Origin: Deltaproteobacteria bacterium
GTDB taxonomy: Bacteria > Desulfobacterota > GWC2-55-46 > UBA9637
DNA: 48,151 nucleotides
Reading direction: 5' to 3'
NCBI GenBank assembly: GCA_016200645.1
Contig: JACQEJ010000096.1
Location: forward strand, 1-48,151
Positions within the stretch are counted from its first letter, which is position 1. Each line of letters starts with the position of its first letter. The notes below the pieces were generated by a model. The model saw nothing but the letters and a program-made list of their open reading frames with translations, had not been told where the DNA came from and did no database searches. Positions 1 through 25,903 of this stretch are shown here, piece after piece. Made by a program: the position numbers and the translations under genes.

Positions 1-1852
1 GCCGCGCGGGATGTGGCTTGCAGAGAGGATATGGGAGCCTCAACTTCCTGTTTGTCTGAAAGAAGCAGGGATGGAATATGCTGTTGTGGATGACTATCAT
101 TTTGTGAAGGCCGGGCTGAGAAAAGAGCAGTTGGCAGGTTATTACATTACAGAGGATATGGGAAATGTTTTGAAGATTTTTCCCGGAAGTGAGCGGCTCA
201 GATATATTATCCCGTTTCAGACATCGGATAAGTTTATGGAAAATATCCGATGGGTTGAAACTCTCGGAACAAACCCGGTGGCAATATTTGCTGATGACGG
301 CGAGAAATTTGGCACATGGCCGGGCACGCACCAGTGGGTTTATAAAGAAGGATGGCTTGAAAAATTCCTTGAGACCATTGTGAAAAATCCGGAACTGATA
401 AAGCCGGTAACCTTTTCTGAATATATGGACAATAACGAACCTCTCGGCAGGGTATATCTGCCGACCACATCCTACATGGAGATGGGGGAGTGGACGTTGC
501 CTGCCGAGGCATCGGAGACATATACGAATCTTCTGAATGAGGTTAAGACATGGCCTGACGGAGAGCGGATACGGAGATTTTTGCAAGGCGGATTCTGGAG
601 GAATTTATTTGCCAAGTATCCTGAGGCGAATTGGATGCACAAGAGGATGCTGATGGTGAGCGAAACGATTGCGGAATGCGGAATGCGGAATGCGGAATTA
701 GAATCTAAACTCCCAACCCCCAACTCCCAACTCCGAACTTATTTATACATGGCCCAGTGCAACGATGCATATTGGCACGGCGTGTTCGGAGGACTTTATC
801 TGCCGCATATCAGAAGGGCGGTTTATGAGAATCTGATTAAGGCGGAGAATCTTTTAGAAGAAAGGCTTAAGGCTGAAGAAAAACAGGCTGAGGGCAAATC
901 TTCTTCCTCTAACCTCCAGCCTGATAAAGAGGTCTTACGACCAGCCTTCAGCCTGATTAGAGATTTTGATGCTGATACCTTCGATGAAATATTAGTCAGG
1001 ACACCGGAACTTAATCTCTTTTTGAGTCCTCATAACGGAGGCTCTATCATAGAACTGGATTACAGGCCAAAGGCTGTAAATCTTTCCAATACGCTTTCAC
1101 GGTGGAAGGAAGGCTATCATCACAGGGTAAAGGCTCAGGGAGAGGGTGGCCATGCCGGCGGCACAAAGAGCATCCATGATTTAACCATGTCCAAGGAAGA
1201 AGGGCTGGAGAAGTATCTCTTCTTTGATAAAGAACAGAGACTTTCGCTGCGCGATCATTTTTTGAAAAAGGAAGAGACGCTGGATGCCTTCAGAAAATCT
1301 GCGCATGAGGAAATGGGGGATTTTGCTTACAGACCGTATGAAAATAATAAGGGGCAAGTGGCAAGGGGCAAGGGGCAGGTTATTTTTAGCAGAGATGGAA
1401 AGGTAAATGGCCAAGCGGTTTTGGTGGAGAAAAAAATATCGGTTAAGGATAATGGAATAATAATAGACTATTGTGTGAAGAGAAACTCTCAACTCCCAAC
1501 TCCCAGCTCCCAACTCCCTCTACGGTTCGGCATTGAATTTAATCTTATTTTGCCGTGCTGCGACGGCATGGACGGATTCTATGATATTTCCATAGAAGAC
1601 AAAGGGCTTGGTGGTTCCGGAGAGATTGTCGGCATAAGGCAAATAGGTTTAGTGGACAAATGGACAAAGATGAGGGTGGATTTCGGTTTTGACAGGGATA
1701 CCTCTTTGTGGAGATTTCCTGTAGAAACCGTTTCCATATCCGAGGCCGGATTTGAGAGAAATTTTCAGGGCTCATGTATTTTGTTTTTCTGGGATATATC
1801 AATGGACAAGAGTTTTGAAGTAGGTTTTAAAGTTAAGGTGGAAGCAATTTAA
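1..1852 (+). CDS. Glycoside hydrolase family 57 protein (alpha-amylase/4-alpha-glucanotransferase-like), 5' end outside window
   Basis: Frame open from nt 2. WLAERIWEP, DDGEKFGTWPG and CNDAYWHGVFGGLYLPHIR motifs are typical of GH57. Stop at 1850-1852. Carries four low-complexity repeat insertions. Confidence 0.8.
   Translation, partial: PRGMWLAERIWEPQLPVCLKEAGMEYAVVDDYHFVKAGLRKEQLAGYYITEDMGNVLKIFPGSERLRYIIPFQTSDKFMENIRWVETLGTNPVAIFADDGEKFGTWPGTHQWVYKEGWLEKFLETIVKNPELIKPVTFSEYMDNNEPLGRVYLPTTSYMEMGEWTLPAEASETYTNLLNEVKTWPDGERIRRFLQGGFWRNLFAKYPEANWMHKRMLMVSETIAECGMRNAELESKLPTPNSQLRTYLYMAQCNDAYWHGVFGGLYLPHIRRAVYENLIKAENLLEERLKAEEKQAEGKSSSSNLQPDKEVLRPAFSLIRDFDADTFDEILVRTPELNLFLSPHNGGSIIELDYRPKAVNLSNTLSRWKEGYHHRVKAQGEGGHAGGTKSIHDLTMSKEEGLEKYLFFDKEQRLSLRDHFLKKEETLDAFRKSAHEEMGDFAYRPYENNKGQVARGKGQVIFSRDGKVNGQAVLVEKKISVKDNGIIIDYCVKRNSQLPTPSSQLPLRFGIEFNLILPCCDGMDGFYDISIEDKGLGGSGEIVGIRQIGLVDKWTKMRVDFGFDRDTSLWRFPVETVSISEAGFERNFQGSCILFFWDISMDKSFEVGFKVKVEAI
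671..739. repeat. In-frame tandem heptamers (GCGGAAT)x4 then (CTCCCAA)x4 inside the GH57 CDS
   Basis: Read directly: gcggaatgcggaatgcggaatgcggaat..ctcccaacccccaactcccaactccgaact. Encodes AECGMRNAELESKLPTPNSQLRT. Confidence 0.9.
864..956. repeat. In-frame mirrored repeat (GGCTGAAGG words and their complements) inside the GH57 CDS
   Basis: ggcttaaggctgaag..caggctgaggg on the left, cagccttcagcctga on the right. Same word family as intergenic hairpin 25914-25987. Confidence 0.75.
1349..1379. repeat. In-frame AAGGGGC heptamer tract inside the GH57 CDS
   Basis: aaggggcaagtggcaaggggcaaggggcagg. Encodes KGQVARGKGQV. Confidence 0.9.
1486..1520. repeat. In-frame CTCCCAA heptamer tract inside the GH57 CDS
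   Basis: ctctcaactcccaactcccagctcccaactccctc. Encodes SQLPTPSSQLPL. Same word as 710-739. Confidence 0.9.
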
Positions 1853-2489: not shown

Positions 2490-3407
2490 TCAATCCCTCG
2501 GCGCCTCCAGCATCCTGTCTAATGCCCTCTTTGCCTGTATTCTTATATCCTCCGGCACCTTTACAATTCTATCCATTCCCTGCAATGCCTCCAGCACATC
2601 TTCCAGCGTGATGAGTTTCATGTTCGGACAGATCAGACTTTTGGATGCAAGAATGAAAGTTTTATCCGGGTTTTCCTTTTTAAGGCGATAGAGGATTCCC
2701 ATCTCCGTGCCCACGATAATGGTCTTTGCCATTGTCTCTTTTGCAAATGCATACATTCCTGATGTGGAGCGCACGGCATCCGCAAGGTCAATCACCTCGG
2801 GCCTGCATTCAGGGTGGCAGACAAAGACCGCATCCGGATATCTTTCCTTTGCCTTTAAAACTTCAGCGGCTTTCAACTTTTCATGCGTGGGGCAGAAACC
2901 ATCCCACCACTCCATCTTTTTCTTCGCTGTCCTTGCAACATACATGGAGAGATTTCTGTCAGGTATCATGTAAACTTTTTCTGACTGCACGGAATTTACA
3001 ACCCTCACTGCATTTGCGGATGTGCAGCAGATGTCGCTCAATGCCTTTACTTCAGCGGTTGTGTTCACATACGTCACAACCGGCACACCGGGTCTCTTTT
3101 CCTTTTCTTTTTTCAAATCCTCTGCCGTTATCATATCTGCCATAGGACAGCCCGCATCAAGTCTTGGCAGGATAACGGTTTTATCGGGACAGAGGATAGA
3201 TGCGCTCTCTGCCATAAAATGCACGCCGCAAAAAACGATCACTTCCGCGTCCGATTTTGCGGCAGCCTGACTTAAAGCCAGAGAATCTCCGCAGATATCC
3301 GCCGCAGCCTGCACCTCGTCCCGCTGGTAATTGTGCGCAAGCATAAGGGCGTTTTTTTGTTTCAATAAAGCCCGGATTTCTTTTTGGAGGTCTTTGGTTT
3401 CTTTCAT
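2490..3407 (-). CDS. nadA: Quinolinate synthase A
   Basis: [23 protein letters not shown] and CPNMK motifs; 305 aa. Confidence 0.9.
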
Positions 3408-3434: not shown

Positions 3435-4949
3435 TTATTTGGCGAGCCTTTCCTTGACCAGCTTATTCAACACCTGCGGATTTGCCTGTCCCTTGGTCGC
3501 CTTCATGGTCTGACCGATAAAAAAGCTGAAGAGTTTTTCCTTTCCTCCCTTATATTCAGCGACCTCTTTGGGATTGGCGGCAATCACTTCGTCTATCGCC
3601 TTTATCAATGCGCCCTCGTTTGAAATCTGGACAAGCCCTTTCCCCTTTACTATCGCCTCCGGGTCCTTGCCTGTTTTATACACATCCTCAAACACTTCCT
3701 TTGCGGTTTTTAAATTGATACTCCCTGCATCAACCATCTTGAGAAGTTTTGCAAAGGCTGAAGGCTGAATGCTGAAAGTGGAAGGCTGTGTTATATCTTT
3801 GCCGTCCTCTTTGATCAGCCTCAACAACTCCCCCATGACCCAGTTGGACACATTTTTGCCAGCAGTTCCTTGCCCCTTGCCCCTTGCCCCTTGCCCCTCG
3901 TATTTTTGGACGCACTCTTCATAATAATTCGCCAATTCCTTGCTTGCGGTTAAAACACCTGCATCATAGGAAGGGATGCCATATTCTTTTATAAACCTTT
4001 GTCTCTTTTTTGCCGGAAGCTCCGGCAAGGTATTTTTTATCTCCTCTATCCATGCCTCATCAATATGCAAAGGAAGCAGATCGGGTTCAGGAAAATAGCG
4101 GTAATCGTGCGCCTCTTCCTTGCTCCGCATGGAAACGGTTATCCCTTTATCAGAATCAAAGAGCAGTGTTTCCTGAATAACCTTGCCGCCGTCCTCTATA
4201 ACCTCTATCTGTCGGTTTACCTCGTAATCAATTGCCTTTTGCACAAATCTGAATGAGTTCATATTTTTAAGCTCTGTCTTTGTGCCAAATTCTTTCCGGC
4301 CCACAGGCCTTATGGAGACATTTGCATCGCAGCGGAAACTCCCCTCTTCCATGTTGCCGTCGCAAATCTCAAGGTAAACCAGTATGTCCCGGAGCGCTTT
4401 GAGATATTCCACCGCCTCTTCTGAATTGCGAATATCCGGCTCGCTCACAATCTCAATCAGAGGAACGCCAGCCCTATTCAAATCAACAAAGCTAAAATCC
4501 GCATCCTCATAGCTCTCGCCGTGAAGGAGCTTTCCTGCGTCCTCTTCCATGTGTATCCTTGTTATGCCGATGCGCCTTTTTGCGCCGTTTACCCCCACAC
4601 CAAAATCTTTGGTGTGGGGGTTTACTTCAATATCAACATAACCCTTTTGTGTCAGGGGTTGGTCATACTGGGAAATCTGATACCCCTTTGGCAGGTCAGG
4701 ATAAAAATAGTTCTTCCGCGCAAAGATGCTTTTGTCGTTAACCTTGCAATGCGTTGCCAGAGCCATCTTTATGGCATATTCAACCGCTACCCTGTTTAAA
4801 ACAGGGAGCGTTCCGGGCATTCCAAGGCAGACCGGACAGACCTGCGTATTCGCCTCTGCGCCGAATTTTGTGGAACACCTGCAAAAGACCTTTGAGTTTG
4901 TCAAAAGCTGGGCGTGGACTTCAAGACCGATAACGGCTTCATATTGCAT
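3435..4949 (-). CDS. gatB: Asp-tRNA(Asn)/Glu-tRNA(Gln) amidotransferase subunit B
   Basis: [35 protein letters not shown] and a GatB/YqeY tail. 504 aa, longer than typical GatB because of two repeat insertions. Confidence 0.95.
3868..3898. repeat. In-frame AAGGGGC heptamer tract (coding strand) inside gatB
   Basis: Plus strand reads ccttgccccttgccccttgccccttgcccct. Encodes [12 protein letters not shown] in GatB. Confidence 0.9.
4592..4620. repeat. Palindromic element family P1 (CCCCCACACCAAA..TTTGGTGTGGGGG), in frame inside gatB
   Basis: cccccacaccaaaatctttggtgtggggg flanked by gtttac on both sides. Encodes [12 protein letters not shown] between IEV and [19 protein letters not shown]. Confidence 0.9.
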
Positions 4950-7198: not shown

Positions 7199-10100
7199 AT
7201 GCAGCACGCAAACTTTGTTCATCTGCACCTGCACACCCAGTACAGCCTTCTTGACGGCGCCATAAGGCATGACGATCTTTTCAAGCTCGCCAGGGAGTAT
7301 AAGATGCCTGCCCTTGCCATGACCGACCACGGCAATATGTTCGGCGCCATTGAATTCTATGAGAAGGCTTCGCATCATGGCATTAAGCCTATCATTGGGT
7401 GCGAGGTGTATGTTGCGCCGGGCAGCAGGTTTGACAGGACAGCAGGCCGCGGGAATAAAGAAGGGGCTGAATATGAGGGTTCCCATCATCTCATCCTTCT
7501 GGTAAAAAATATAAAGGGTTATAGGAATCTGTGCAGGCTGGCTACATCCGCCTATCTTGAGGGATTCTATTACAAGCCGAGGATAGATAAGGAGCTTCTC
7601 AAGGCAAATAGTGAGGGTCTTATTGCCCTCAGTTCCTGCCTCCACGGAGAAATCCCGCACCTTATCCTGAACGGCAACAAGGAAAAGGCGCTCAAAGCGG
7701 CGGATGAATACAAGGCAATTTTTAACAACAACAGATTTTATCTGGAGCTGCAGGATAATAAGCTCCCGGAACAAAAGAAGGTGAATGAGGGGCTTCTGGA
7801 GATCAGCAAAAAACTGGATGTCCCCATCGTTGCCACAAACGACTGCCATTATCTGAAGAGAGAAGAGGCAAAGGCGCACGATATTCTGATTTGCATACAG
7901 ACAGGAAAGACAGTAACTGCGACTGACAGGCTTAAGTTCAGGACAGATGAATTCTATTTTAAATCTCCGCAAGAGATGGAGACAGCCTTCAGCTCATATC
8001 CCGAGGCGATAAAGAACACCATCGAGATCGCCGAGAGATGCAATCTGGATTTCAAGCTTAAAGAGCATCACTTGCCTGTTTTTCCTGTGCCGGATGGCGA
8101 GGACATTGATATATTTTTTGAGAAACGGGCGCAGCACGGTTTGGAAAATAGATTAAGGGGTATGGAGCAAGCCGACCTGTCTGCCGAGACTCCGGCACAG
8201 GCAGGCCGTGTCGGCGTAAAAGATGACGGCAACACGGCTGCCTCGGTCCAAAAGTGGCGTTATTATGAAAGACTGGAAAAGGAGCTCAAGGTGATTAAGG
8301 CAATGGGGTTTTCAGGATACTTCCTCATTGTCGCCGATTTTATAGACTTTGCAAAAAAGGAAAACATACCGGTCGGCCCTGGAAGGGGCTCTGCAGCAGG
8401 CAGTCTTGTCGCCTATGCCCTCGGCATTACGAACCTTGACCCGATACAGCACAATCTCCTGTTTGAAAGATTTTTGAATCCTGACAGGATAAGCCTCCCT
8501 GATATTGATATAGATTTCTGCATTGAGGGGAGAGACGATGTCATACGATATGTTGCTGAGAAATACGGCAAGGATAATGTGAGCCAGATAATCACCTTCG
8601 GCCAGATGAAGGCAAAGGCGGTGATACGGGATGTGGGAAGGGCAATGGATATACCATACAGCGAGGTTGATAGGATTGCGAAGCTTGTCCCGAATATATT
8701 GAATATAACCATCGATGACGCCATGAGGCAGGAGCCCAGGCTGAAAGAGCTGAGCGATAAGGACGCAAGGATTAAGGAGCTGATGGATATTGCAAAAACC
8801 CTTGAAGGTCTTCCCCGTCACGCATCAACCCACGCCGCAGGCGTTGTGATATCTAATAAGCCTTTGATAGAATATCTGCCGCTTTACAAGGCCCCCAAGG
8901 AAGAAGTGGTGACAACCCAGTATGCCATGAAGGATGTGGAGAAGATAGGGCTTGTCAAATTTGACTTCCTCGGCTTGAAAACCTTGACTGTTATAGACAG
9001 GGTAGTAAAACTTTTAAAGCAGAAAGGCATAGAACTTGATATAGAAAATGTAAGGCTTGACGATACCGAGACATACAAGCTCTTGAGTTCCGGCAACACC
9101 AACGGCATATTCCAGCTTGAAAGCTCAGGCATAAAGGAGCTCCTCCGGAAGCTCAAGCCTTCAGACTTCGAAGACATTATGTCCGTTGTCGCCCTGTACA
9201 GGCCTGGCCCGCTGCAGAGCGGCATGGTGGATGATTTTATAAAGAGGAAGCACGGCAAGGCGGCCATTAAATATGAACTGCCGCAATTAAAAGAGATGCT
9301 GGCTAATACATACGGCGTTATTGTTTATCAGGAGCAGGTCATGGAAATCGCCAAGGTCCTCGCAGGCTTCAGCCCCGGCGACGCCGATGTGCTGCGAAAG
9401 GCGATGGGAAAAAAGCTTCCCGAAGAGATGGTTGTTCAGAGGGAGAGATTTATTGAAGGCGCCAAGAAAAACAAGGTGGAGCAGAAGAAGGCGGAAAAGA
9501 TTTTTGACCTCATGGCAAATTTTGCCGGCTATGGATTCAACAAATCCCACAGCGCGGCGTATGCGCTCATCGCGTATCAGACCGCGTATCTTAAGGCGCA
9601 TTATCCTGTGGAGTTTATGGCAGCGCTTTTAACTGCCGATATGGGCAATACGGATAATGTCATAAAATATATCGGCGAGTGCCGTGAAATGGCAATTGAG
9701 ATACTGCCGCCGGATGTCAATGAAAGCAGGATGGACTTTACGGTCACCTCCCCCTCTATCCCCCTCGTGGAGGGGGACAGGGGGAGGATACGATTCGGTC
9801 TGGCTGCGGTGAAGAATGTTGGAAGCGCTGCCATAGATGTGATATTAAAAGCAAGGAAAGATGGAGGGCCGTTTGCATCCATAGTGGATTTTTGCACAAA
9901 GGTTGACCTCCGAAAGGTAAACAGGCGGGTTATAGAAAGCCTTATCAAGTGCGGGGCGTTTGATTCTTTAGGCGCGAAAAGGGCCCGGCTTATGGCATCC
10001 ATAGATAAGGTGATGGATATATCGCAGGCGACGCAGAGAGAGAGGGAGAATGGCCAGATAAGCATTTTTCAAACAATCGGGGGCGGGAACAGCGGAACGG

Positions 10101-10774
10101 CAACCATAGAGCTTCCTCAAACAGAAGAATGGCACGATGCCCAGCTTTTGAGCTATGAGAAAGAAGCGCTCGGTTTTTATATCACCGGACATCCTCTGGA
10201 AAAATATGCGGAAGAGCTGAAGCATCTGGCAAACACCGACACTGATGGGATAAAAGAAAGGCAAGACGATGCAGAGGTGAGCATTGCCGGTATGGTAACG
10301 GCGGTGAAAGAGATAAATACAAAAAAAGGGGACCGGATGGCATTTATCACACTGGAAGATCTTAAGGGTTTTGTTGAGGTGATTGTATTTTCTGATGTGT
10401 ATAAAAATACCGCGCCCTATTTGAGCAGTGAGGCGCCTGTTGTCATAAAAGGCAAGATTGATAAAGGCGAGGAGGATGTAAAAATTATTGCACATACCGT
10501 CTATCCTCTGGAGCAGGCAAAGACAATGATTGTGAATGTTGCTCATATTAAAGCAGATGCGGCAAGACTCGAAACAGTTTCTCTGGAAAAGATAAAAGGG
10601 GTTCTGAGCGCGCATGCAGGCAGCTGTCCTGTATATATTCATCTTGTATGGAGCGACAGGGAAGTGGTGATTGCCGTCCCCGATAAACTCAGGGTTGCTC
10701 CTTCTGAAAAATTTATAAAGGATATCGAAATGCTTCTGGGGGACGGAAGCGTTGTTGTAAATGCAAAATTGTAA
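7199..10774 (+). CDS. dnaE: DNA polymerase III alpha subunit
   Basis: PHP motif FVHLHLHTQYSLLDG, pol III alpha core motifs, C-terminal OB region; 1191 aa. Confidence 0.95.
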   Translation: MQHANFVHLHLHTQYSLLDGAIRHDDLFKLAREYKMPALAMTDHGNMFGAIEFYEKASHHGIKPIIGCEVYVAPGSRFDRTAGRGNKEGAEYEGSHHLILLVKNIKGYRNLCRLATSAYLEGFYYKPRIDKELLKANSEGLIALSSCLHGEIPHLILNGNKEKALKAADEYKAIFNNNRFYLELQDNKLPEQKKVNEGLLEISKKLDVPIVATNDCHYLKREEAKAHDILICIQTGKTVTATDRLKFRTDEFYFKSPQEMETAFSSYPEAIKNTIEIAERCNLDFKLKEHHLPVFPVPDGEDIDIFFEKRAQHGLENRLRGMEQADLSAETPAQAGRVGVKDDGNTAASVQKWRYYERLEKELKVIKAMGFSGYFLIVADFIDFAKKENIPVGPGRGSAAGSLVAYALGITNLDPIQHNLLFERFLNPDRISLPDIDIDFCIEGRDDVIRYVAEKYGKDNVSQIITFGQMKAKAVIRDVGRAMDIPYSEVDRIAKLVPNILNITIDDAMRQEPRLKELSDKDARIKELMDIAKTLEGLPRHASTHAAGVVISNKPLIEYLPLYKAPKEEVVTTQYAMKDVEKIGLVKFDFLGLKTLTVIDRVVKLLKQKGIELDIENVRLDDTETYKLLSSGNTNGIFQLESSGIKELLRKLKPSDFEDIMSVVALYRPGPLQSGMVDDFIKRKHGKAAIKYELPQLKEMLANTYGVIVYQEQVMEIAKVLAGFSPGDADVLRKAMGKKLPEEMVVQRERFIEGAKKNKVEQKKAEKIFDLMANFAGYGFNKSHSAAYALIAYQTAYLKAHYPVEFMAALLTADMGNTDNVIKYIGECREMAIEILPPDVNESRMDFTVTSPSIPLVEGDRGRIRFGLAAVKNVGSAAIDVILKARKDGGPFASIVDFCTKVDLRKVNRRVIESLIKCGAFDSLGAKRARLMASIDKVMDISQATQRERENGQISIFQTIGGGNSGTATIELPQTEEWHDAQLLSYEKEALGFYITGHPLEKYAEELKHLANTDTDGIKERQDDAEVSIAGMVTAVKEINTKKGDRMAFITLEDLKGFVEVIVFSDVYKNTAPYLSSEAPVVIKGKIDKGEEDVKIIAHTVYPLEQAKTMIVNVAHIKADAARLETVSLEKIKGVLSAHAGSCPVYIHLVWSDREVVIAVPDKLRVAPSEKFIKDIEMLLGDGSVVVNAKL
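9747..9787. repeat. Palindromic element family P2 (CCCCCTCGTG core), in frame inside dnaE
   Basis: cctccccctctatccccctcgtggagggggacagggggagg. Encodes TSPSIPLVEGDRGR just before the conserved IRFGLAAVKNVG. Confidence 0.8.
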
Positions 10775-10775
10775 A

Positions 10776-10880
10776 CCCCCACACCTTGACCCCCACACCA
10801 AAGATTTTGGTGTGGGGGCAAGGAAGAAAAGAAGTAACCCTGCGCCAAGAGCGCAGGGCATTCCCAACAAGGTGTGGGGG
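10776..10880. repeat. Nested structured element after the dnaE stop: outer stem enclosing a P1 palindrome and a GC hairpin
   Basis: Outer arms cccccacaccttg (10776-10788) and caaggtgtggggg (10868-10880). Inner P1 palindrome 10790-10818. Hairpin ccctgcgc/gcgcaggg 10838-10858. Confidence 0.85.
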
Positions 10881-23172: not shown

Positions 23173-23447
23173 TATTTGTTCACCGAATCTTTTAATATCT
23201 GACTGGCTTTAAATGTTAAAACCCTTCTTGCTGTTATTGTCAGGTCATTCCCTGTTTGCGGATTTCTTCCCCTCCTTGCCCTCTTTTGCCGTGCCATGAA
23301 ATTTCCAAAACCGGATATTTTGACATTCTCTCCTTGTTCAAGGGACTTTTTTATGGACTCAAATACAAGTTCCACTACATCTGTCACATCTTTTTTGGAG
23401 AAGCCGACTTTTTCAAAGATATTCTCTACAATGTCCGCCTTAGTCAT
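23172..23447 (-). CDS. ihfA: Integration host factor alpha subunit / HU-family DNA-binding protein
   Basis: MTKADIVE..GFGNFMARQKRARRGRNPQTG, the typical IHF-alpha arm; 91 aa. Confidence 0.85.
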   Translation of the reverse strand: MTKADIVENIFEKVGFSKKDVTDVVELVFESIKKSLEQGENVKISGFGNFMARQKRARRGRNPQTGNDLTITARRVLTFKASQILKDSVNK

Positions 23448-25903
23448 TTGATGCCTCCTTCCTCTCCTCTAATTTCTATGCCGAATTTATCTTTTAAGCC
23501 TTTTAATATTGCCAAGTGGGCGCTATTCACTTCCTCATCGGTCAATGTTCTATCCGGAGAACGATACAGAAAGCGAAGGGCGATGCTCACTTTGTCTTGC
23601 GGGATATGTTCACCGTAGTATACATCAAAAACATTAACTTCTTCAAGGAGTTTCATATCCAGCGCTTTGACAAAATGATAAACCTCCTGGAACGAAATCT
23701 CCTTATCTATTATCATTGCCGCATCCCTGACTATCGTAGGATATGTAGGGAGAGAAGCGTATCTTTTTTTTCTGTGGGAAGCTATGAGAATGGCATTCAT
23801 GCCAAGCTCAAATATATGCACAGGCTGTTTGATATCCAGCCGCTGCATGGCATCAGGATGAATTTCTCCTATTATTCCGAGTCTCCGGTTGGATACCTCA
23901 ATCACAGCGGCCTTGCCAGGGTGCAGGAACGGGATATCTCCCCTGGGGATAAAGGCATACCTGTCAATGCCCAGCCCTGTCAAAACCTGTTCCGCTGCGC
24001 CTTTTATATCGTAAAAATCCGCAGCCTCCCTGCCGGTATTCCATGCCTCGCCGTATCTGAGGCCGCTTATCAAACCGCTTACGAGCTCCCTCTCTTCGGT
24101 TTCCTTCCCCTTTGGGATAAATATCTTGCCGATCTCAAAAATCTTTATGTCGCGATTATTGTAATTCAAATTATACTGCAGGGTTTGCAAAAGACAGGGG
24201 ATAAGACTCTGCCTCATCACAGATTGTTCGTCTGTTAATGGATTTATCAGCGCCAATCCGCTTTTTATATCAGGTGTTGTAATCTCAAAAAACTTTGGTG
24301 ACAGAAAGCTATAATTGACAGCCTCGAGAAAACCATTGTTGATTAAAATATCCCTCGCCTTTTCTCTTAGCAAATCCGCCCCTTTTGTTTTACGGGTTGA
24401 TAATCCTGCTGCCGGAAGGATGGCGGGGATATTTTCATAGCCGTAGAGCCTTGCAATTTCTTCTATGATATCTATCTCTTTGAGCAAGTCCACCCTGAAC
24501 GCAGGCGGTATAACATTCCATGCCGTCTGCTGCCTGCTGCCTGTTGCCTTACAGGCGATGCTGAGTCTCTTCAAGCAATCCTCAACCTCTTTTTTCTTTA
24601 TATCAATGCCGAGGAGTTTATTTATTCGGGAAAGTCTTACTTTAATCGCTGCGGGTTTGTGCGGCCTGGGGTATTTATCAACGGCTCCATCTGCTATATT
24701 TCCGCCTGCCAGTGCAGCGATCATCCGGGCAGCCCTGTCCAATGCCTTTGCCACGCCCTCTATGTCGGCGCCCCGCTCAAATCTGTAAGATGACTCGGTA
24801 GAAATCCCCAATGCCTTTGATGTCCTCCGCACACAGGCAGGATCAAAATATGCGCTCTCCAGCAGGATATTTTTTGTTGTCTCCCGTATCTCCGATCCCT
24901 TTCCGCCCATAATCCCTGCCAGGGCAACAGGCCTCTCCTTATCAGCAATAACAAGCATATCCCTGGTAAGCGCCCTGTCAATGCCATCAAGGGTCTGAAG
25001 CCTTTCATTTTCTTTCGCCATTCTTACCACGATCTGTTTGCCGGAAATAAGGTCGTAGTCAAACGCATGCAAGGGGTGGCCGTATTCGAGCATCACATAA
25101 TTGGTCGCATCCACCACATTGTTTATTGCTCTGAAGCCGAGAAACTCAAGTCTCTGCTTAAGCCAGACCGGCGAAGGGCCGATTTGAACATTTTCAATAA
25201 TCTGCGCGGCATATCGTCTGCAAAGAGAAGGTTCAGCAATGGAAACGTACGGGAGTTTTGTGTGTTGCGTTTTGCGTTTTGCGTTTTTACTCCTGACTCC
25301 TGACTTCTGACTCCTGACCGTAGCGCCTGTTATCGCGGCTATTTCTCTGGCAATCCCAATAATGGATAAACAATCCGGCCTGTTCGGCGTGACATTTATA
25401 TTGAAGATAAAATCATTTAAACCGGTTGCCTCTGTAAAATTTTTGCCGATGGGAAAATCTTGCGGCAGAATCATTATGCCAACCCCCTCGTGCCCCCCTT
25501 TTTCTAAAGGGGGGACGTGGGGGGTTAGCCCCAACTCAGCTTCGGAACACATCATGCCTTCGGATTCCACGCCCCTTATCTTTGTCTTCTCTATTTTTAT
25601 GCCTTTGGGCAACGTTGCCCCGGGAAGCGCCAGAGCGACTTTGTCGCCTGCCTTCATATTTTTTGCGCCGCAGACAATGGAGTGGACCCCTTTATCGGTC
25701 TTTACCTTGCAGAATGAAAGCCTGTCGGCATTTGGATGTTTTTCTACAGAGAGGATTTGGGCTATCACAACACCTTTTATATCTTTACCCGGCGCCTCAA
25801 TGCCTTCCACCTCAAAACCAGCCATGGTTAATTGTTCAGCCAGTTGAACAGGTGAGGGAATCGCTCTTATATATTCTTTAAGCCAGTTGTAGCTTATCTT
25901 CAT
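23444..25903 (-). CDS. pheT: Phenylalanine--tRNA ligase beta subunit
   Basis: MKISYNWLKEY N-terminus, tRNA-binding, B3/4, B5 and FDX-ACB regions. 819 aa, including two repeat insertions. Confidence 0.95.
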   Translation of the reverse strand: MKISYNWLKEYIRAIPSPVQLAEQLTMAGFEVEGIEAPGKDIKGVVIAQILSVEKHPNADRLSFCKVKTDKGVHSIVCGAKNMKAGDKVALALPGATLPKGIKIEKTKIRGVESEGMMCSEAELGLTPHVPPLEKGGHEGVGIMILPQDFPIGKNFTEATGLNDFIFNINVTPNRPDCLSIIGIAREIAAITGATVRSQKSGVRSKNAKRKTQHTKLPYVSIAEPSLCRRYAAQIIENVQIGPSPVWLKQRLEFLGFRAINNVVDATNYVMLEYGHPLHAFDYDLISGKQIVVRMAKENERLQTLDGIDRALTRDMLVIADKERPVALAGIMGGKGSEIRETTKNILLESAYFDPACVRRTSKALGISTESSYRFERGADIEGVAKALDRAARMIAALAGGNIADGAVDKYPRPHKPAAIKVRLSRINKLLGIDIKKKEVEDCLKRLSIACKATGSRQQTAWNVIPPAFRVDLLKEIDIIEEIARLYGYENIPAILPAAGLSTRKTKGADLLREKARDILINNGFLEAVNYSFLSPKFFEITTPDIKSGLALINPLTDEQSVMRQSLIPCLLQTLQYNLNYNNRDIKIFEIGKIFIPKGKETEERELVSGLISGLRYGEAWNTGREAADFYDIKGAAEQVLTGLGIDRYAFIPRGDIPFLHPGKAAVIEVSNRRLGIIGEIHPDAMQRLDIKQPVHIFELGMNAILIASHRKKRYASLPTYPTIVRDAAMIIDKEISFQEVYHFVKALDMKLLEEVNVFDVYYGEHIPQDKVSIALRFLYRSPDRTLTDEEVNSAHLAILKGLKDKFGIEIRGEEGGIK
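25267..25318. repeat. In-frame tandem heptamers (GCGTTTT)x3 + (CTCCTGA)x4 inside pheT
   Basis: gcgttttgcgttttgcgtttttactcctgactcctgacttctgactcctgac. Encodes VRSQKSGVRSKNAKRKTQ on the minus strand. Confidence 0.9.
25481..25526. repeat. Palindromic element family P2, in frame inside pheT
   Basis: aaccccctcgtgcccccctttttctaaaggggggacgtggggggtt. Encodes TPHVPPLEKGGHEGVG after the conserved MCSEAELGL. Confidence 0.85.

What the first reader, a model, noticed from the sequence alone, without database searches (positions are those of the whole stretch)
9747..9787. Second palindromic family (CCCCCTCGTG core) in frame in dnaE
cctccccctctatccccctcgtggagggggacagggggagg forms an imperfect palindrome. 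It encodes TSPSIPLVEGDRGR directly before the conserved IRFGLAAVKNVG segment of Pol III alpha. The ccccctcgtg core recurs in the pheT insertion at 25481-25526. The replicative polymerase therefore tolerates a repeat-derived loop as well.
Basis: partly seen in the sequence, partly recalled or inferred. Interest (0 to 1): 0.6.

Follow-up and report, generated by a model that had tools for sequence, protein, structure and literature searches.

The report
Mobile mini-palindrome translated inside DnaE
A 41-base DNA palindrome from a small repeat family found in only one family of uncultured groundwater bacteria sits in frame in the only replicative-polymerase gene, where it lengthens a floppy surface hairpin by ten residues; this kind of insert is already known from Rickettsia, but this family is new, very small, and has an odd history at this site.

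Summary
Window 9747-9787 is a stable nested hairpin, in frame in dnaE, and encodes TSPSIPLVEGDRGR directly before IRFGLAAVKNVG.

It is a true insert. 89 of 98 DnaE homologues, and every outgroup, have a 4-residue turn there (for example IGDK).

It is a member of a real repeat family. The consensus is CCTCCCCCTTTATCCCCCTC-NNN-GAGGGGGACAGGGGGAGG. G000 holds about 8-11 copies. The family was found in 9/9 genomes of the bacterial family, in 0/398 other genomes sampled from the phylum, and on at least 120 metagenome contigs.

The 10-mer occurs only twice in the genome (2.1 expected by chance). In dnaE the G is a private loop variant of ATG. The pheT copy belongs to a sister subfamily (inner stem CCCCCCTTT/AAAGGGGGG).

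The unit is stop-free in 5 of 6 frames and reads as Pro-rich then Gly-rich loops in either orientation. It occurs in many housekeeping genes in different frames, which points to passive tolerance.

Unusual points:
- There is no target duplication.
- 11-15 target bases are overwritten.
- The unit prefers the tips of other hairpins.
- Filled and ancestral-looking empty dnaE alleles alternate between sister species.
- The insert is about 20-fold less diverged than its flanks.

The scan had already followed up a sister family (P1) in this same window. Intragenic REPs, including one in Rickettsia dnaE, are published.

The parts
7199..10774 (+). dnaE (DNA polymerase III alpha, DnaE1-type), 1191 aa. 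It is the only full-length copy found in the genome.
   Evidence: ORF and translation. PDB phmmer gives E=2.5e-300 to T. aquaticus Pol III alpha. Pfam finds PHP, DNA_pol3_alpha, finger, HHH_6 and OB. There is a single full match in G000.
9747..9787 (+). 41-nt family-B palindrome unit (CCT...AGG). It is translated within codons 9746-9787 as T850-R863.
   Evidence: Family consensus and unit ends come from 61 distinct metagenome copies and from 9 related genomes.
9747..9755 (+). Outer left arm, CCTCCCCCT.
   Evidence: Fold.
9759..9766 (+). Inner left arm, TCCCCCTC. It is preceded by the internal loop CTA (9756-9758). That loop contains the dnaE-specific TCT variant where the consensus has TTT.
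9767..9769 (+). Apical loop GTG, a private variant of the consensus ATG.
9770..9777 (+). Inner right arm, GAGGGGGA.
9779..9787 (+). Outer right arm, AGGGGGAGG. Base 9778 (C) is a one-base bulge.
25481..25526 (-). Sister-subfamily (C) nested palindrome, in frame in pheT (ORF 23444-25903 on the minus strand). It encodes TPHVPPLEKGGHEGV.
   Evidence: It is absent from pheT of the 12 other genomes with a readable site, 7 of them in family f1, which have KDVSE there; G009 has PPLQGGG.

Best explanation
The segment is one copy of a lineage-restricted family of 41-nt nested G5/C5-clamped palindromes (called family B here). The family behaves as small non-autonomous selfish DNA.

This copy overwrote the 4-codon turn of a beta-hairpin at the N-terminal edge of the (HhH)2 domain of DnaE. 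It is translated as a 14-residue, Pro-then-Gly-rich flexible loop, a net gain of 10 residues.

It persists because it keeps the reading frame, contains no stop codon, and sits on a solvent-exposed hairpin tip. It does not persist because the peptide does something.

Shown:
- It is a repeat.
- It is an insert.
- It is in frame.
- Its location is a low-confidence loop between two strands.
- The same unit is tolerated in other essential genes in five different frames.
- It turns over between close relatives.

Inferred:
- It is translated rather than removed.
- It is functionally neutral.
- It spreads by a mechanism that leaves no target duplication and overwrites about 11-15 bases of target (as few as 5 if G002's GGGAGG is taken as the target), often the tip of an existing hairpin. 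Capture of a hairpin at a break, or template switching, seems more likely than cut-and-paste with staggered cuts.
- The dnaE site has been filled more than once, or the filled allele has moved between lineages.
For: Family
- G000 has 8 full and about 3 partial copies.
- The pattern is in 9/9 f1 genomes with 2-36 hits each, and in 0 of 21 + 398 other genomes. The reversed control gives 0.
- At least 120 metagenome contigs carry it.

Insert
- All 12 outgroup DnaE sequences, and 89/98 database homologues, have 10 residues between PPDxNES and IRFGL; G000 has 20.
- Against T. aquaticus Pol III alpha there is a 10-residue gap between residues 885 and 886.
- Pfam HHH_6 matches residues 833-931 to 89 profile positions.

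Structure
- The AF2 model (pLDDT 84.4) has strands 848-850 and 863-865 flanking the loop.
- Block 851-860 has mean pLDDT 53, and residues 854-856 are below 50.

Tolerance
- The consensus is open in 5 of 6 frames for 39 of 64 possible loop triplets; a random frame of this length has probability 0.49 of being open.
- G000 copies lie in frame in dnaE, two cheA genes, ybeY and an outer-membrane protein gene.
- Subfamily C copies lie in pheT, truA, uvrD/pcrA-like, cobT, a NiFe hydrogenase gene and others.
- All five open frames are used in long ORFs across genomes.
- Net length changes are +30, +51, +27, +27 and +30 nt, all multiples of 3.

Turnover
- The cheA and pheT copies are private to G000.
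- dnaE is filled in G006 but empty in its sister G002 (95% nt identity), and filled in G003 but empty in G001 (90%).

Mechanism clues
- No direct repeat flanks any copy.
- The element replaces 11-15 nt of target.
- 27 of 61 distinct copies continue as a hairpin for 2 or more bases into flanks of variable sequence.
- The stems were already present at the empty sites examined.
Against: - There is no direct evidence of translation (no proteome or ribosome data), and none of mobility in real time.
- No mobilising enzyme was identified.
- Y1 transposase genes occur in all f1 genomes but also in 14/21 genomes of other families, and none examined is flanked by B units.
- No GIY-YIG match above cut-off was found in G000.
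- The dnaE copies are far more conserved than neutral DNA should be (0-1 differences in 41 nt against about 20-23% in the flanks, p<=0.002). They also share a private TCT variant. Selection on the hairpin in dnaE, or conversion between copies, therefore cannot be excluded.
- "Overwriting" of target bases is inferred from comparisons between species, not from an observed event.
Confidence: 0.82

Rival explanations
1. Single ancient insertion at the base of the bacterial family, inherited vertically and kept by selection on the DNA or RNA hairpin or on the loop in DnaE, with independent later losses in G002, G001, G004 and the P0027 clade.
For: - Parsimony on the DnaE tree needs only 4 changes if the gain is basal; the basal lineages P0002, G008 and G000 are all filled.
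- G009 has a decayed remnant, ACCTCC..ATGGAG.. = TSDGEMRK.
- The filled alleles share the private TCT variant.
- The element is strongly conserved relative to its flanks.
Against: - The empty alleles (ATTGGCGATAAG, ATTGGAAATAAG, ATTGGCGGGAGG, GTCAGCAATAAG = IGDK, IGNK, IGGR, VSNK) resemble each other and the outgroups (IGEK, VGDK, VGEG). They cannot be produced from the filled allele by one deletion.
- Four independent deletions converging on the ancestral sequence is implausible.
- With G001 included, a pure-loss history needs 5 events against 6 for pure gain, so parsimony does not decide.
Confidence: 0.3
2. The loop is an adaptive module of this lineage's DnaE, for example altering DNA, clamp or tau contacts near the HhH motif or modulating fidelity, and not a neutral passenger.
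For: - The site is filled in six lineages and the insert is much more conserved than its flanks.
- Di Nocera et al. 2013 (PMC3733652) speculated that REP inserts in replication and repair genes are not fortuitous.
Against: - Close relatives work without it (G002, G001, G004 and 13 further f1-like proteins).
- The same unit is read in four other frames in unrelated proteins.
- In G007 and G008 the loop has been further invaded or duplicated to 27 and 23 residues without loss of the ORF.
- The model confidence there is low, as expected for a disordered loop.
Confidence: 0.08
3. The palindrome arose locally in dnaE by template switching on a quasi-palindrome and is unrelated to a mobile family. 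Alternatively, it is skipped during expression (translational bypass, or excision at the RNA or protein level).
For: Loop triplets occur as complementary pairs (ATG/CAT, ACA/TGT, ATA/TAT, ACG/CGT), which shows that intra-hairpin template switching does operate on these units.
Against: - Identical 35-41-mers occur at dozens of unrelated loci in nine genomes and on at least 120 metagenome contigs.
- Every intragenic copy with a known empty site changes length by a multiple of 3 and is stop-free in the host frame. A bypassed or excised element would not need either property.
Confidence: 0.03

Closest known systems
Intragenic REPs (GTAG- and CGTC-tagged repetitive extragenic palindromes) of Di Nocera et al. 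2013 (PMC3733652), including a REP inside Rickettsia conorii dnaE and REPs in dnaE2, uvrABCD, recBCD and polA
   Same: Both are 20-40-bp hairpin repeats that are mostly intergenic, with a minority translated inside known genes, notably replication and repair genes. Both are thought to sit in loops or linkers. CGTC REPs also lack a dedicated transposase.
   Different: - There is no GTAG or CGTC tag at either end (0 and 6 of 122 flanks).
- The architecture is two nested stems clamped by C5/G5 runs.
- It does not flank Y1/RAYT genes.
- It is restricted to one uncultured family of a 'deltaproteobacterial' / Thermodesulfobacteriota-like phylum.
Rickettsia palindromic elements (RPE; Ogata et al. 2000, as summarised in PMC10969869)
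   Same: Both are selfish palindromic repeats inserted in frame in many unrelated housekeeping genes, with the extra peptide compatible with the fold.
   Different: RPEs are about 100-150 bp and add 30-50 residues. This unit is 41 nt and adds a net 9-10 residues. There is no sequence relation, and the host phylum is different.
Prokaryotic MITEs (review PMC10969869)
   Same: Both are non-autonomous, multicopy, have inverted-repeat ends, and occasionally form in-frame fusions.
   Different: MITEs are 50-500 bp, AT-rich, and have terminal inverted repeats plus target-site duplications. Here the unit is 41 nt and about 70% G+C. No duplication was seen, and target bases are overwritten.
REPIN / RAYT systems (Bertels and Rainey 2011, PMC3116915)
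   Same: Both are hairpin-forming repeat units with conserved sequence across related genomes, and both insert into or next to existing repeats.
   Different: A REPIN is a doublet of two REPs, and its cognate RAYT gene is flanked by them. B units are single hairpins, and no RAYT association was found.
P1 palindrome family of this same genome (CCCCCACACCAAAnnnTTTGGTGTGGGGG), earlier follow-ups e1-3373676 and e1-3373677
   Same: Same genome, same C5...G5 clamp, and also in frame in essential genes (gatB, hisC). About 75 copies were seen here.
   Different: P1 is reported to make a 4-bp target duplication, to occur in many phyla, and to have nuclease-carrying full-length relatives. B shows no duplication, is confined to one family, and no long form was found.

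Membership tests
REP (GTAG/CGTC-tagged) superfamilies | Small (20-40 bp) imperfect palindrome present in many copies | tested here: met
   41-nt unit. G000 has 8-11 copies, and each related genome gave 2-36 pattern hits on the two strands.
REP (GTAG/CGTC-tagged) superfamilies | Unpaired GTAG or CGTC motif at one end (PMC3733652) | tested here: not met
   In 61 distinct copies there is no GTAG/CTAC within 10 nt of either end, and CGTC/GACG occurs in 6 of 122 flanks. The unit ends are CCT...AGG.
REP / REPIN-RAYT | Cognate Y1 (RAYT) transposase gene flanked by the repeats | tested here: not met
   The two Y1 genes of G000 and five in relatives have no B unit directly flanking them. In L103 a B copy, part of the ~210-nt element, lies about 700 nt from the Y1 gene. 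The genomes are incomplete MAGs, so absence is not proven.
REP / REPIN-RAYT | Predominantly extragenic | tested here: inconclusive
   53 of 61 metagenome copies are extragenic by an ORF criterion. In G000, however, 5 of 8 full copies are intragenic.
MITE | 50-500 bp with terminal inverted repeats and flanking target-site duplication | tested here: not met
   The unit is 41 nt. No direct repeats flank any copy. Filled/empty pairs show replacement of 11-15 nt of target.
Rickettsia palindromic elements | In-frame insertion of a palindromic repeat in unrelated protein genes | tested here: met
   dnaE, cheA x2, ybeY, an OMP gene and others.
Rickettsia palindromic elements | ~100-150 bp unit belonging to the RPE-1..10 sequence families of Rickettsia | tested here: not met
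   The unit is 41 nt. The family is confined to one non-rickettsial lineage. Sequence comparison with RPEs was not run.
DnaE1-type Pol III alpha (host gene) | PHP - Pol3 core - (HhH)2 - OB architecture | tested here: met
   Pfam and PDB matches. Domain order as in PMC3919608.

The most novel reading that the evidence does not exclude
The 41-nt palindrome is a homing-like, or hairpin-tip-seeking, mobile unit. It repeatedly enters exactly the same dnaE codon, or is exchanged between alleles at that codon. It moves by a process that leaves no target duplication and overwrites about 5-15 bases of target. That would be a mode of small-repeat spread (templated patch or hairpin capture) not described for REPs, MITEs or RPEs. 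It would explain three observations: ancestral-looking empty alleles alternate with filled alleles among sister species; flanks follow the species tree right up to the element; and the element is about 20-fold less diverged than its flanks.
Probability: 0.25. Interest if true: 0.75.

Novelty: new variant of a known kind. Interest (0 to 1): 0.5.

Why it matters
- It shows that even the sole replicative polymerase of a free-living bacterium carries translated selfish DNA. In this lineage dnaE carries it at several sites.
- It defines a new, very small repeat family whose composition (C5/G5 clamps, open in 5 of 6 frames, Pro...Gly peptides in either orientation) makes it unusually safe to insert in genes.
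- For annotation, such units explain lineage-specific low-confidence loops in conserved proteins.
- For mobile-DNA biology, three features offer a tractable case for asking how sub-50-nt palindromes move: no target duplication, overwriting of target bases, and a preference for the tips of other hairpins.
- The alternation of filled and empty alleles at one codon among sister species adds to that case.

Tried and rejected
1. CCCCCTCGTG as a family marker. It occurs only twice in the genome, as expected by chance.
2. Direct target-site duplications. None was seen in 30 + 61 copies with flanks or in five filled/empty pairs.
3. RAYT/Y1 transposase as the partner. Y1 genes are not specific to the family and are not flanked by B units.
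4. A GIY-YIG nuclease partner, a lead from the earlier P1 follow-up. G000 gives only a sub-threshold 20.6-bit hit.
5. Long "full-length" forms with separated arms. Only 1-2 solo arms were found and no ORF-containing form.
6. Phage carriage. There are 0 exact matches in viral contigs.
7. The dnaE-specific TCTAT variant elsewhere. There are 0 matches in metagenome contigs and none among other genomic copies.
8. Rfam identity for the ~210-nt multicopy element that hosts B in relatives. No match was found.
10. A shared target motif. The TTTAC...ATACG resemblance between the dnaE site and the 210-nt element site is not seen at other loci.
11. Naming the organism. The search for related loci returned only relatives at 61% identity or less. 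Protein names point to Rifle and Hainich groundwater 'Deltaproteobacteria' MAGs.
Full report
OBSERVATION

The window is contig C113 of a 1.98-Mb, 201-contig, 45.6% G+C metagenome-assembled genome. Positions 9747-9787 read cctccccctctatccccctcgtggagggggacagggggagg. They lie in a 1191-codon ORF, 7199-10774 +.

That ORF is DNA polymerase III alpha. It matches T. aquaticus Pol III alpha at E=2.5e-300 and the E. coli enzyme at 4.5e-276, and it has the PHP, core, finger, HHH_6 and OB domains.

The segment folds as a 9-bp outer stem, a 3/1-nt internal loop, an 8-bp inner stem and a 3-nt loop. The energy is -17.7 kcal/mol as DNA and -36.1 as RNA, and no shuffle of 200 folds as well.

THE "CORE"

CCCCCTCGTG is found exactly twice in the whole genome, at 9760 and 25483, against 2.1 expected by chance. 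In dnaE it is inner arm plus loop. In pheT it is outer arm plus spacer. It is a coincidence of two C5-rich elements, not a signature.

THE REAL FAMILY

A scan for C5...G5 palindromes gave 111 loci in three main groups.

- The P1 family: CCCCCACACCAAAnnnTTTGGTGTGGGGG, about 75 copies.
- Family B, the type found in dnaE.
- Family C, the type found in pheT, with inner stem CCCCC(C)TTT...AAAGGGGG(G).

The B consensus is CCTCCCCCTTTATCCCCCTC-NNN-GAGGGGGACAGGGGGAGG. G000 has eight full copies (C10:61, C19:998, C45:4693, C94:14273, C102:5133, C109:4909, C113:9747, C156:131) and about three partial ones.

Distribution of a 35-nt pattern:
- It hits all nine other genomes of GTDB family f1, with 2-36 hits each.
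- It hits none of 21 genomes from ten other families of the class.
- The reversed-pattern control gives zero.
- In 400 genomes sampled across the phylum, only the f1 members match.
- The exact consensus lies on at least 120 metagenome contigs, many from groundwater.
- It is on no viral contig.

In 61 distinct metagenome copies the conserved unit ends sharply at CCT...AGG, giving 41 nt. There is no GTAG or CGTC tag.

The loop triplet varies and comes in complementary pairs (ATG/CAT, ACA/TGT, ATA/TAT, ACG/CGT), while the asymmetric spacers TTTAT/ACA keep their orientation. This is what loop inversion by intra-hairpin template switching would give (inference). The GTG of G000 is a one-base private variant of ATG.

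IT IS AN INSERT

All 12 outgroup DnaE sequences have 10 residues between PPDxNES and IRFGL, for example FTVVGDKVRFGL. G000 has 20. Among 98 database homologues that could be scored, 89 have 10 residues. Only the nearest relatives have 14, 20, 29 or 33. Against T. aquaticus the query shows a 10-residue insertion between residues 885 and 886. Pfam HHH_6 covers residues 833-931 with 89 profile positions.

An AlphaFold2 model built on 31 sequences (pLDDT 84.4) puts strands at 848-850 and 863-865. The loop between them has mean pLDDT 53, and residues 854-856 are below 50. The insert therefore lengthens the tip of a beta-hairpin directly before the first HhH hairpin of the (HhH)2 motif (domain order as in PMC3919608). 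I could not measure distances to DNA or the clamp because coordinates are not exposed.

WHY IT IS TOLERATED

The consensus is open in five of six frames for most loop triplets. Because C-runs give Pro and G-runs give Gly, either orientation reads as Pro-rich then Gly-rich. The five open frames give:

| Frame | Peptide |
|---|---|
| 1 | SPFIPLMEGDRGR |
| 2 | PPPLSPSWRGTGG |
| 3 | LPLYPPHGGGQGE |
| 4 | PPPVPLHEGDKGG |
| 5 | LPLSPSMRGIKGE |

All five frames are found inside long ORFs.

Hosts of B in G000 are dnaE, two cheA genes, ybeY and an outer-membrane protein gene. Family C sits in pheT, truA, a UvrD/PcrA-like helicase gene, cobT, a NiFe-hydrogenase large-subunit gene and others (host names from motifs, inference).

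Where an empty orthologous site is available, the net change is +30 (dnaE), +51, +27, +27 and +30 (pheT) nt. In-frame length and absence of stops argue for ordinary translation and against bypassing. In the larger metagenome sample only 8 of 61 copies are intragenic, as expected if most genic insertions are purged.

HISTORY AT THE dnaE SITE (the unexplained part)

Allele states:
- Filled: G000, G006, G003, G007, G008 and the database protein P0002.
- Decayed remnant: G009.
- Empty: G002, G001, G004, P0024, P0027 and twelve further close proteins.

Two sister pairs differ in state. G006 (filled) and G002 (empty) are 95% identical in dnaE. G003 (filled) and G001 (empty) are 90% identical. The masked DnaE tree needs at least 4 changes of state, or 5 once G001 is added by hand.

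The empty alleles resemble one another and the outgroups. They read ATTGGCGATAAG, ATTGGAAATAAG, ATTGGCGGGAGG and GTCAGCAATAAG (IGDK, IGNK, IGGR, VSNK), against IGEK, VGDK and VGEG in the outgroups. No single deletion of the filled allele yields them. At least some filled states must therefore be secondary gains, or imports of a filled allele.

Several facts remain hard to reconcile:
- The flanks follow the species relationships right up to the element.
- The filled alleles share a private TCT where every other copy has TTT.
- The 41-mer differs at 0-1 positions between lineages whose flanks differ at 20-23% (p<=0.002).
- G003's copy shares two internal-loop variants with another G003 copy (C128:7391).
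- G002's allele looks like a hybrid, with an ancestral left half and GGGAGG, as at the element's right end, on the right.

I cannot decide between three histories: recurrent entry at a hot spot with convergent Phe-to-Ser change, exchange of alleles within recombining populations, or an old insert kept uniform by selection or conversion and repeatedly replaced.

Most other copies are lineage-private. The cheA and pheT copies occur only in G000, and three copies in relatives are empty in G000. So the dnaE site is exceptional.

MECHANISM CLUES

- No direct repeat flanks any copy.
- In every filled/empty pair the unit replaces 11-15 nt of target. The figures are 41 nt for 11 in dnaE, 45 for 15 in pheT, 41 for 14 twice, and 41 for 12-13 in a ~210-nt multicopy element.
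- 27 of 61 distinct copies continue as a hairpin for two or more further bases into flanks of variable sequence; about 6% would do so by chance. These copies are not all independent.
- At two sites the stem already existed in the empty state.
- In G007 another palindrome has entered the loop of the dnaE copy, and in G008 the inner hairpin is doubled.

These points suggest targeting of hairpin tips, or patch-like templated repair (inference).

No partner enzyme was identified:
- Y1 transposase genes are in all f1 genomes but also in 14 of 21 others, and none examined is directly flanked by B.
- No GIY-YIG match above cut-off exists in G000.
- No long form of B was found.

COMPARISON WITH WHAT IS KNOWN

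Translated palindromic repeats in essential genes are known.
- RPEs of Rickettsia are about 150 bp (PMC10969869).
- Di Nocera et al. 2013 listed intragenic GTAG/CGTC REPs in replication and repair genes, including dnaE of R. conorii (PMC3733652).

Family B works like these elements but fails the defining tests of each family. It has no GTAG or CGTC tag and no RAYT flanking, so it is not a tagged REP or REPIN. It has no target duplication and is under 50 bp, so it is not a MITE. It is not about 100-150 bp and not rickettsial, so it is not an RPE. The same scan has already followed up the sister P1 family in this window.

VERDICT

The family definition is wrong. The thing itself is a new, very small variant of a known kind. 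Its site history in dnaE is curious and unresolved, and read-level data could settle it.

Noticed in passing
window 8162-8250 (dnaE residues ~322-346): There is a second repeat-derived in-frame insert in the same dnaE, an ~88-nt partly palindromic element with a near-identical second copy at G000:C158:6680-6770. AF2 pLDDT is below 50 there. G008 has it too. G003 and G004 have heptamer tandem arrays (aactccg / aaatccg) at the same position.
   Followed up: partly
dnaE of relatives (L005, L007, L008, L137; alignment columns 2962-3024 and 3441-3546): Two more dnaE sites in this bacterial family hold other palindrome families. GGGGACAGATTTGAAATCTGTCCCC is in G007, G001, G003 and G004. CCCCCGATAGnnTCnATCGGGGG is in G003 and G004. 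Their presence is again patchy among species.
   Followed up: no
window 10776-10818: A doublet of the P1 palindrome (CCCCCACACCTTGACCCCCACACCAAAGATTTTGGTGTGGGGG) starts two bases after the dnaE stop codon.
   Followed up: no
G000:C47:1937-2121, C137:6298-6483 (-), C153:410-597, C9:1-152, C78:35104-35322, C129:10929-11146, C179:2200-2330: A ~210-nt multicopy element with several hairpins and a terminator-like end (cccaaaaatagactttgatttttgggg ... gtaaaatagcgaggtttttaatcgctattttacgg) has no Rfam match. In G004, G005, G008, G009 and many metagenome contigs its central hairpin tip (CCGTATgttcaccGATACGG) is replaced by the B palindrome.
   Followed up: partly
window 25481-25526 (pheT): The family-C palindrome is a 15-codon replacement of 5 codons (KDVSE). 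It is private to G000 among the 13 genomes with a readable site. G009 has a short PPLQGGG variant at the same place, possibly a remnant of a similar element.
   Followed up: partly
G000 contig ends (C10:61, C156:131, C119:256, C134:107, C33:53): Several C5/G5 palindromes lie within about 250 nt of contig ends. This suggests that these repeats break the assembly and that copy numbers are underestimated.
   Followed up: no
L103 271-813 (G004:C75): A 180-aa RAYT-like Y1 transposase gene lies about 700 nt from a B-bearing copy of the 210-nt element, separated from it by a small two-gene cassette. No repeat directly flanks the gene.
   Followed up: partly
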